NCBI RefSeq assembly: GCF_963921235.1
Contig: NC_086097.1
Location: forward strand, 48,920,001-48,984,000
From: Mobula hypostoma
Taxonomy: Eukaryota
Length of the DNA: 64,000 bases
Direction of reading: 5' to 3'
In this document: piece after piece, positions 44,400-45,710 of the stretch
How the letters are laid out: every line of letters starts with the position of its first letter
Numbering within the stretch: the stretch's first letter is position 1
Notes under the pieces: model-generated
What the model was told of the DNA's origin: nothing
The model's input: the letters and a program-made list of their open reading frames with translations, nothing else
Database searches by the model: none
Made by a program: the position numbers and the translations under genes

Positions 44400-45710
44400 C
44401 ATAGATTCATAGAAATATACAGCACAAAAATGAGTCTTTGCAGCCCACCTCATCCATGCCAAATGATGTCTATCAACATAAATCCTGTCTGCCAATACCA
44501 TTCTATCCCTTTCCTATCCGAGTAACTGCTCAAACAAACATTTGAATGTTGTAACCGTATCTTCCTCTACCACCTCCTCTGCCAGTTCAATCCAAATATT
44601 CTCCGCACACTGTGTGAAATACTTACCTTTCAGATCTGCTTTAAATGTTTCCTCTCTCACCTTAAATGTGTGCCCTCTTGTTCTAGACTGCCCTGCCCTA
44701 GGAGAAAGATGATTATCTTTCTTATCTACACCTTTCATAATTTGGTAAAACTCTATAAGTAACTCCTCCGCCTTCTATGTCCCAGTGAAAATAAACGCAG
44801 CCTATCCAATCTCTCCTTAGAAATACAACCCTCCATTCCAGGCAACATGAAATTAATCTCTTGTGCATTCTCTCTACTGCTACCATATCTTTCTTGCAGT
44901 ATAGAGACCAGATGTTCACAAAATACTCCAGGTATTATAACGAATGTCCCTTTCACCACCTTTTCTACCTGTGTTGCCATTTTCAAAAAGCTATGGATTC
45001 GCACTGCAAGATTTCTCGAAAAAAAGGTATATCAATGCCATTTACTCTAAATATCCTAAGGGAATTTGGCCTCCCAAAGTGCATTACTTCAGACTTGTCT
45101 GGATTAAATTCCATCTGCCTCTACTGAGACCAACTTTCCGGCTGATCCATGTCCCATTGTATTTTTAAAAAACTTTTATTGCTGTCGCCAACTCCACTAT
45201 TCACATCCCTTATATTCCCATTTAGGTCACATATATTGCAAGCAACAAAATTCCCAGCACTGAGTCCTGAGATGTTTGCATGTACTACACCAAATAATCT
45301 ACAGATGCTGGGGTCAAAGCAACACTCACAACACGCTGGAGGAACTCAGCATGTCGGGCAGCATTTGTGGAAAAGATCGGTCGATGTTTTGGGCTAGAAC
45401 CCTTCGTTAGGACCATCCTGACGAAGGGTTCTGGCCCGAAACATCGACCGATCTTTTCCACGGATGCCACCCGACCTGCTGAGTTCCTCCAGCATGTTGT
45501 GAGCGTTGCATGTACTCCAAATTTCCAGTCAGAGAAGCATCTGTCCATCACTATCCTCTGCCTCCTATCATCCCGACAAGCTTCAGATCTCTTGAATCTC
45601 AACCTTCTGGATTAGCCCATCGTGCAGCACCTTGTCAAAGGCCCACAGAAAATATTTACCACCCTACCTTCTTTAATCTCCTTGATTACCTCCTCAAAAA
45701 TCTCAATTAG
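44400..45710 (-). mobile_element. Degenerate CR1 interrupted by a Penelope-derived fold-back
   Basis: SRTRGHTFKV, ERLDRLRLFSL remnants; tail CATAGATTCATAGAAA on plus strand. Confidence 0.8.
45287..45505. mobile_element. Palindromic Penelope-derived mini-element with two inverted hammerhead motifs
   Basis: About 90 bp inverted arms centred near 45414; 11 bp TSD TTGCATGTACT (45276-45286, 45506-45516). Confidence 0.85.

What the first reader, a model, noticed from the sequence alone, without database searches (positions are those of the whole stretch)
45276..45516. 219 bp palindromic mini-element of two back-to-back hammerhead/pLTR halves with an 11 bp TSD
Seen: the insert is almost wholly a fold-back (AACACTCACAACACGCTGGAGGAACTCAGC...CCCTTCGTTAGGA cca TCCTGACGAAGGG...GCTGAGTTCCTCCAGCATGTTGTGAGCGTT), has no coding sequence, sits inside a CR1 and is bounded by TTGCATGTACT repeats. 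The symmetry axis falls just 5' of both hammerhead cores. Similar older fold-backs occur at 53132-53342, 34483-34624 and possibly 560-740. Inference: either a recurrent extreme product of Penelope 5' inversion or a distinct non-autonomous MITE-like ribozyme retroelement presenting a hammerhead motif on either strand.
Basis: partly seen in the sequence, partly recalled or inferred. Interest (0 to 1): 0.75.

Follow-up and report, generated by a model that had tools for sequence, protein, structure and literature searches.

The report
Dead Penelope retroelement fold-back insertion
This 219-base hairpin is real, but it is two truncated ends of a very abundant Penelope-like jumping gene joined head to head, likely in one old insertion event and with predicted-inactive hammerhead motifs, so it is an ordinary example of a known pattern rather than a new mobile element.

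Summary
The insert at 45287-45505 is a fold-back (z -23.8). It is flanked by an 11-mer found only twice in the window and sits in a LINE reverse-transcriptase relic.

It is asymmetric. The left arm carries a 32-nt extension that the right arm lacks. This is the one-sided Penelope 'tail'; with an inverted pLTR and a TSD it is the published PLE insertion pattern.

Six head-to-head insertions in the window have six different junctions. The contig across this junction has single-copy depth (9.8 against 10.7 and 11.9 for the flanks). The arms differ at 10 of 94 pairs, and a second organism shares the insertion.

Neither hammerhead is predicted to work. The minus-strand core has G5A and G12A. The plus-strand stem I is cut by the axis. 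The hairpin favours its own fold by 57 kcal/mol.

Verdict: a likely one-off, dead 5'-inversion product. A small fixed-junction family is not excluded, because no genome was available. One residue is of interest: 11 of 20 pLTR arms in the window start within the hammerhead footprint. The scan has noted this pattern before, on other DNA.

The parts
45276..45286 (+). Left target-site duplication copy (7-11 bp; first 4 bases also match the pLTR 3' end)
   Evidence: only two copies of the 11-mer in the window
45287..45318 (-). 32-nt PLE 'tail' of the inverted arm; absent from the right arm
   Evidence: arm ends at +128 relative to hammerhead C3; 212 contigs in X2 and 192 in X5 end at 45287 with unlike flanks
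45319..45415 (-). Inverted 5'-truncated pLTR arm
45378..45415 (-). Minimal hammerhead relic, minus strand: stem I and stem II can pair, core broken (G5A, G12A), helix III not palindromic
45413..45415 (.). Head-to-head junction (3-nt loop), 2-5 nt 5' of both cores
   Evidence: contig 45355-45442 with 0 differences, depth 9.83 (record 13)
45416..45505 (+). Direct 5'-truncated pLTR arm, ending at the pLTR/tail boundary (pairs on to 45509 through the shared TTGC)
   Evidence: 400 contigs in X2 continue beyond 45509 into tail sequence
45416..45450 (+). Minimal hammerhead relic, plus strand: core intact, stem I cut to 2 bp by the junction, helix III not palindromic
45506..45516 (+). Right target-site duplication copy
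45037..45275 (-). Host LINE reverse-transcriptase relic (CR1-like by recalled motifs), left flank
   Evidence: tblastn E 1.3e-13 to the RVT_1 ORF at 2945-4654
45517..45713 (-). Host LINE reverse-transcriptase relic, right flank
53133..53340 (.). Comparison: older mini fold-back, tail on left arm, junction inside the hammerhead (arms end near +5 and +16)
53456..54178 (.). Comparison: long head-to-head insertion, 13-bp TSD, arms end at -153 and -330
55362..56135 (.). Comparison: head-to-head insertion, 14-bp TSD (55348, 56136), main arm holds the GIY-YIG end of the ORF, tail arm starts at +27
34484..34624 (.). Comparison: inverted tail plus about 8 nt, then a direct pLTR from about -6; 11-bp TSD with 1 mismatch
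46849..48436 (+). Comparison: long direct copy linking this pLTR family to a PLE RT-GIY-YIG ORF relic

Best explanation
The insert is two 5'-truncated ends of a Penelope-like element joined head to head between a 7-11 bp target duplication, likely made in a single old insertion event and likely dead on arrival. Shown: the anatomy (TSD, tail, inverted pLTR, direct pLTR, TSD). Shown: both arms come from one subfamily. Shown: the pLTR family is attached to an RT-GIY-YIG ORF, the insertion is shared with a second organism, and the junction contig has single-copy depth in one sample. Inferred mechanism (about 0.55 on its own): the PLE RT/GIY-YIG protein cuts both target strands 7-11 nt apart. One cut end primes cDNA at the pLTR/tail boundary and the other at the tail end, which are the two start sites mapped in vitro for the anole PLE. 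Both cDNAs stop after about 95-130 nt at the 5' edge of the hammerhead and are joined. The near-perfect symmetry would then arise because this edge is a preferred stopping point, not because the palindrome is a propagating unit. The hammerheads are passengers: a read-through transcript is predicted to form a 94-bp hairpin that hides them.
For: (a) Pattern: an inverted 5'-truncated copy with a one-sided 30-40 bp tail is described as typical of PLEs (PMC8557442 passages). An A. vaga copy has an inverted pLTR, a 31-bp tail and a 9-bp TSD, and head-to-head is the most frequent arrangement (PMC3846280 passages). Opposite-strand min-HHR pairs 100-700 bp apart are already noted (PMC4209133). (b) Ends: both outer ends sit at family-wide boundaries. 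In 5 of 6 head-to-head insertions one arm ends at +128 to +131 and the other near +94; the sixth (560) is too decayed to place. The anole protein cuts and extends both strands and starts at two sites bracketing the tail (PMC11167929). (c) Junctions: 6 of 6 window junctions differ. The junction contig depth is 9.83 against flanks 10.7 and 11.9. The best-supported other arm-to-arm joints in the DNA runs are at varied positions with depth at most 49.3 (15 of 150 joints and 12 of 52 between-letter rows shown). (d) Arms: they are mutual nearest neighbours, 0.89 against at most 0.81 among 16 arms. (e) Decay: 10 of 94 mismatches, 5 giving G-U on the plus RNA and 4 on the minus RNA, so no strand is favoured. 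Organism B has the same insertion with about 1% flank divergence. (f) Hammerheads: P(stem I) and P(stem II) are 0.0 in the full element on both strands, and forcing the plus-strand fold costs 57 kcal/mol.
Against: No whole genome was held, so junction copies could not be counted. The depth test sees exact 31-mers only; sisters diverged by about 10% would mostly be missed, so a family of a few tens of copies is not excluded. Record 13 has only 27-29 letters on its shorter side, under the tool's 31-letter bridging rule, and X2 may be the source sample. 59,571 laid pieces were not shown. The arms end within about 3 nt of each other, more symmetric than any other insertion in the window. The 4-nt match between TSD and pLTR end hints at primer-template pairing, whereas PMC11167929 reports initiation without homology. 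Self-priming on an antisense template (PMC3846280) explains head-to-head palindromes too.
Confidence: 0.82

Rival explanations
1. One-off PLE insertion as above, but the palindrome is made by fold-back self-priming (on the cDNA or an antisense template), with the tail left at one end by endonuclease resolution of the intermediate.
For: Proposed for head-to-head PLE palindromes in PMC3846280. PMC8557442 ascribes the tail to EN-mediated resolution. A 3-nt loop and near-equal arms suit a snap-back. A one-sided tail in 5 of 5 clear cases suggests the two ends are coupled.
Against: Four of the six window insertions have unequal arms or a spacer (53455: -153/-330; 55353: +27/-577; 34483: +87/-6; 53132: about +5/+16), which simple snap-back does not give directly. 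Both outer ends match the two in vitro start sites.
Confidence: 0.3
2. A propagating non-autonomous palindromic (MITE-like) PLE derivative with a fixed junction, mobilised in trans through its free tail.
For: It keeps the tail and pLTR 3' part, which resembles the minimal template region in PMC11167929. pLTR-bounded cargo can be moved in trans (PMC3846280). Three of six window insertions are fold-backs of about 200-220 bp. Summed depth at 45405 is 4,466 in X2, which leaves room for diverged copies, though it most likely comes from ordinary arms.
Against: Junction contig at single-copy depth. The three mini fold-backs are from different subfamilies with different junctions. No listed piece other than the locus's own crosses the axis (1 of 32 pieces shown). 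The template would be locked in a -175 kcal/mol hairpin.
Confidence: 0.07
3. A functional two-strand ribozyme element or an exapted regulatory hairpin (small-RNA source, ADAR substrate).
For: Very stable hairpin; central 52 pairs unbroken on the plus RNA through G-U; retained in organism B.
Against: Minus core G5A and G12A; plus stem I 2 bp; helix III CATC in both arms. Mismatches are split evenly between strands. Retention across a 1% divergence is expected for a neutral insertion.
Confidence: 0.04

Closest known systems
Head-to-head inverted insertions of EN+ Penelope-like elements with one-sided tail and TSD (PMC3846280; PMC8557442 Fig. 2 legend)
   Same: Inverted 5'-truncated pLTR next to a direct copy, 32-nt tail at one end only, 7-11 bp TSD, palindrome at the junction.
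   Different: Extreme truncation: no ORF remains, so the two pLTR ends meet directly at the hammerhead edge.
Minimal type-I hammerheads (min-HHR) of metazoan PLE pLTRs (PMC4209133)
   Same: CUGANGA, bulged base, stem II, GAAA-YRUH layout with a 4-5 bp stem I in intact window copies; opposite-strand pairs 100-700 bp apart already reported.
   Different: Both motifs here are damaged and sequestered; they are on opposite strands, so one transcript cannot supply the dimer.
Poseidon PAc of Anolis (PMC11167929)
   Same: Insertion ends fall at two sites bracketing a tail; hammerhead within about 100-130 nt of the ends.
   Different: The window's ORF relics carry a cysteine cluster between RT and EN, which suggests the Neptune clade (PMC8557442 passage; no tree built). 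PAc 5' truncation at the hammerhead is not reported in the parts read.
Non-LTR retrozymes (bioRxiv 10.64898/2026.07.22.740005)
   Same: Non-coding, PLE-pLTR-derived, type-I hammerhead motif.
   Different: Retrozymes are head-to-tail tandem repeats with complete hammerheads in at least two consecutive units; this is head-to-head with none competent.
MITEs (recalled)
   Same: Short, non-coding, fold-back, TSD-flanked.
   Different: Ends are not terminal inverted repeats (32-nt asymmetry), the sequence derives from a retroelement, and no multi-copy fixed structure was shown.

Membership tests
EN+ Penelope-like element insertion | pLTR family attached to a single ORF with RT and C-terminal GIY-YIG endonuclease | tested here: met
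   ORF relic 46849-47766 upstream of a homologous pLTR hits 5 longer proteins, 3 with PF01541 and 4 with PF00078; P0004 RVT_1 plus GIY-YIG confirmed; the window piece 55753-56040 gives GIY-YIG only below cut-off, E 0.059. The element itself has no ORF.
EN+ Penelope-like element insertion | Adjacent inverted 5'-truncated copy | tested here: met
EN+ Penelope-like element insertion | 30-40 bp tail at one end only | tested here: met
   32 nt at 45287-45318
EN+ Penelope-like element insertion | Short TSD | tested here: met
   empty-site alignment to window LINE paralogues scores one copy 156/143, none 154/139, two 147/139 (weak)
Neptune clade | Zn-finger-like linker and RT phylogeny | tested here: inconclusive
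   Cysteine cluster seen in translations; no tree built
Functional min-HHR | Intact CUGANGA and GAAA core | tested here: not met
   Met on the plus strand, not on the minus strand (G5A, G12A)
Functional min-HHR | Stem I of 4-5 bp and palindromic helix III for dimer formation | tested here: not met
   Plus stem I 2 bp; helix III CATC on both arms
Functional min-HHR | Self-cleavage | not testable with these tools
   needs an in vitro assay
Non-LTR retrozyme | Head-to-tail tandem units, each with a complete hammerhead | tested here: not met
   head-to-head arrangement
Propagating non-autonomous (MITE-like) family | Many dispersed copies with the same internal junction and different flanks | tested here: inconclusive
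   1 copy in the window; junction contig at single-copy depth; no genome for a full count
MITE | Terminal inverted repeats abutting the TSD | tested here: not met
   left 32 nt have no partner at the right end

The most novel reading that the evidence does not exclude
The 219-bp palindrome is one copy of a small, old, self-propagating non-autonomous family: a hairpin RNA recognised through its free tail and retrotransposed whole, junction included, by the PLE enzyme. That would make it a retro-MITE, a kind I found in none of nine literature searches. A milder and likelier novelty (about 0.4) is that the hammerhead region sets where PLE cDNAs stop in vivo, which would give the motif a role in transposition that in vitro work did not see.
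Probability: 0.07. Interest if true: 0.65.

Novelty: new member of a known kind. Interest (0 to 1): 0.18.

Why it matters
As a single locus it matters little: it is a neutral, decayed repeat and a usable presence/absence marker between related cartilaginous fishes. Collectively such mini-insertions are useful. Both outer ends record the two PLE reverse-transcription start sites. The inner ends cluster at the hammerhead: 11 of 20 arms, or 8 of 9 insertions with an end between -100 and +60 (p about 4e-5, range chosen after seeing the data). A genome with very many such copies would allow a statistical test of how PLEs make inverted insertions and whether the hammerhead acts during transposition, both open questions in the papers read.

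Tried and rejected
Whole-genome junction count: no genome held.

Rfam scan of the window at E up to 1: 4 chance-level hits, no hammerhead family. Minimal HHRs lack helix III, so this blank is no evidence.

Fold-back patterns in viral contigs and metagenome contigs: 0 hits each. A 21-nt pLTR motif in metagenome contigs gave 2 loci, both chance matches without further similarity.

Earlier-findings look-up by sequence: nothing.

Expression: no RNA holder listed. The one guessed-RNA run laid (X22) has no cover over parts of the unique left flank; this is no evidence either way. Small-RNA and A-to-I editing could not be tested because all runs were contigs.

Selection for a plus-strand hairpin: considered because the central five mismatches are all G-U on the plus RNA; rejected because the outer ones are the reverse (5 against 4).

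Junction at the hammerhead cleavage site: rejected; the arms run 30-33 nt past it.

3' splice acceptor at the hammerhead edge as the cause of the right arm's start: six of seven long copies have a pyrimidine tract plus AG there, but one has GG and this element's minus arm reads TGG. Left open.

34483-34624 as a fold-back: rejected. Pfam gave no hit for four PLE ORF relics of the window.

Full report
OBSERVATION. The 11-mer TTGCATGTACT occurs at 45276-45286 and 45506-45516 and nowhere else in the window, enclosing 219 bp. The insert folds as one hairpin, MFE -175.3 kcal/mol, z -23.8, with 0 of 200 shuffles as stable. In ungapped register the arms 45319-45412 and 45416-45509 give 94 pairs with 10 mismatches, 9 of them transitions. 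The first 32 nt, 45287-45318, have no partner. The flanks joined over one TSD copy match a window ORF with an RVT_1 domain (tblastn E 1.3e-13), so the host is a LINE relic on the minus strand; 'CR1' is from recalled motifs. The first four TSD bases also equal the pLTR's own 3' end, so the true duplication is 7-11 bp.

WHAT THE SEQUENCE IS. Each arm is the 3' end of a repeat with 20 arms in the window (profile search; one further hit at E 0.79 dropped; 0 hits on the reversed window). Long copies run into an ORF relic whose five longer homologues carry RT and/or GIY-YIG domains, the best from a cartilaginous fish by its source name. So this is the pLTR of an endonuclease-bearing Penelope-like element, possibly of the Neptune clade (cysteine linker seen, no tree). 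The unpaired 32 nt are the sequence that follows the pLTR end in other copies. In one search, 400 contigs of run X2 continue past 45509 into tail sequence, and 212 end at 45287 with unlike flanks. Both outer ends of the insert are therefore family-wide boundaries. The two arms are each other's nearest neighbours among 16 arms aligned (0.89 against at most 0.81; four short or decayed arms left out), so both derive from one subfamily template.

IS THE JUNCTION A FAMILY TRAIT? The window holds six head-to-head insertions. Their arm 5' ends relative to hammerhead C3 are: 560 (about +5/+14 to +18), 34483 (+87/-6), 45287 (about -5/-2), 53132 (about +5/+16), 53455 (-153/-330) and 55353 (+27/-577) (the profile over-extends through palindromes, so fold-back ends were read from the pairwise alignments and the sequence). 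No two share a junction. No genome was held, so I laid contigs of four runs on 45080-45720 at 85% likeness. In X2, which may be the source sample, an 88-letter contig with 0 differences crosses the axis at depth 9.83; the flank contigs have depth 10.7 and 11.9. It is the only one of the 32 pieces shown that crosses the axis (59,571 not shown), and its shorter side of 27-29 letters is under the tool's 31-letter bridging rule. Other arm-to-arm joints lie at varied places (for example 45348-45414, 45363-45416, 45371-45463, 45374-45480, 45313-45416), and the best-supported reach depth 49.3 at most in DNA runs (15 of 150 shown). Summed depth falls from 2.9 million over the outer arm to 4,466 at 45405; the tool warns this is no copy number. 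Together this argues against an abundant fixed-junction family but cannot exclude a few tens of diverged copies.

AGE. Organism B (run X5) has contigs over both boundaries with 3 of 242 and 2 of 243 differences (the right one has only 28 letters inside the element). The arms differ by 10.6%. If they were identical at birth, the insertion is several times older than the split of A and B, as its presence in both implies. Five mismatches give G-U on the plus RNA and four on the minus RNA, so no strand's hairpin is favoured.

HAMMERHEADS. Intact window copies (54085, 53588, 55458) have the minimal type-I layout of PMC4209133: both core boxes, a 5-bp stem I and a self-pairing helix III. In this element the minus motif has G5A and G12A, both core residues by established hammerhead chemistry. 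The plus motif keeps its core, but the junction leaves only 2 bp of stem I. Both have CATC in helix III. In the full element the predicted probability of stems I and II is 0.0 on both strands, and forcing the plus-strand fold raises the energy from -174.0 to -117.1 kcal/mol. The element does not present a working ribozyme on either strand by prediction; cleavage was not assayed.

MECHANISM. PMC11167929 (parts 1-2 of 4 read) shows that the anole PLE protein cuts and extends both target strands and starts reverse transcription at two internal sites bracketing the tail. Here the right end sits at the first such site and the left end at the second, as in 5 of the 5 well-preserved head-to-head insertions. 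The simplest reading, inferred, is priming from both cut ends, early termination of both cDNAs, and end-joining. The rival is self-priming on an antisense template, proposed in PMC3846280 (passages). Why are the arms so equal? Of 20 arms, 11 start between -7 and +27, none between +29 and +86, one is almost tail only, one starts at -82 and seven are longer than the profile. By insertion, 8 of 9 with an end between -100 and +60 fall in the 35-nt footprint (binomial p 3.8e-5; range chosen after seeing the data; very short tailless pieces are hard to detect). So the hammerhead region is a preferred stopping zone, and two stops there give a palindrome of about 200 bp. The cause is untested: an RNA 5' end, a splice acceptor (pyrimidine tract plus AG in 6 of 7 long copies; a Penelope intron ends at helix I in D. 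virilis), or an RT stall. One window copy has CCGG just upstream of the core, a natural annealing point for two cDNA ends. The observed loop is two changes from that, which is only a conjecture, but it means identical junctions could recur without propagation.

COMPARISON WITH WHAT IS KNOWN. PMC8557442 (passages) and PMC8969392 (passages) describe the inverted 5'-truncated copy and one-sided tail as standard PLE features. PMC4209133 (parts 1-2 of 4) notes opposite-strand minimal hammerheads 100-700 bp apart and relates most motifs to truncated PLEs. The retrozyme preprint (part 1 of 5 and passages) defines tandem head-to-tail units, which this is not. Nine searches listed no paper on fixed-junction palindromic PLE families in sharks or rays, or on truncation clustering at the hammerhead. 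The library lacks most subscription papers and Repbase/Dfam, and no supplements were read; Fig. S2 of PMC11167929 may bear on insertion ends. Earlier notes of this scan reach the same reading for other fold-backs in this and other genomes, and one reports the same breakpoint clustering. They are unchecked AI notes, not independent support; I saw them before running.

VERDICT. A real feature and a tidy, extreme example of a known PLE insertion pattern, most likely a single dead event (0.82). Propagating palindromic family 0.07. Interest 0.18.

Noticed in passing
window-wide, 20 pLTR arms: 5' ends cluster in the hammerhead footprint (11 of 20 between -7 and +27 of C3; none between +29 and +86).
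   Followed up: partly
48266-48305, 9455-9494, 12561-12600, 54045-54084: A pyrimidine tract ending in AG lies just 5' of the hammerhead in 6 of 7 long copies; possible 3' splice acceptor, untested; the 63876 copy has GG instead.
   Followed up: partly
45276-45286 and 55348-55361: The TSDs of two different insertions both contain ATGTACT in element orientation; may be chance or an endonuclease preference (n = 2 of 4 clear TSDs).
   Followed up: no
61321-61699: Young PLE copy with a short internal inversion (61321-61378) and a second inverted repeat, without tail or clear TSD.
   Followed up: no
run X22, joint 45376 to 45314: A contig of depth 881 in a guessed-RNA run returns 63 nt within the pLTR, which would fit a head-to-tail tandem (retrozyme-like) unit of this family.
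   Followed up: no
table 5c (45495 to 45325, 45495 to 45337, 45499 to 45335): Joints that read as tail-to-tail pLTR arrangements also exist in this genome, at near single-copy depth.
   Followed up: no
45446-45455: This element's subfamily has stem I 3' strand GACCG instead of GACTG; C at 45449 is carried by about 80% of laid depth in X2 and X5 but by under 1% in X12, so the subfamily expanded in the A/B lineage.
   Followed up: no
2945-4654 (+): A 570-codon stop-free LINE RT frame (RVT_1, E 4.7e-34), a relatively young copy.
   Followed up: no
22970-23017: Perfect 21-bp inverted repeat with a 6-nt spacer, unrelated to the pLTR.
   Followed up: no
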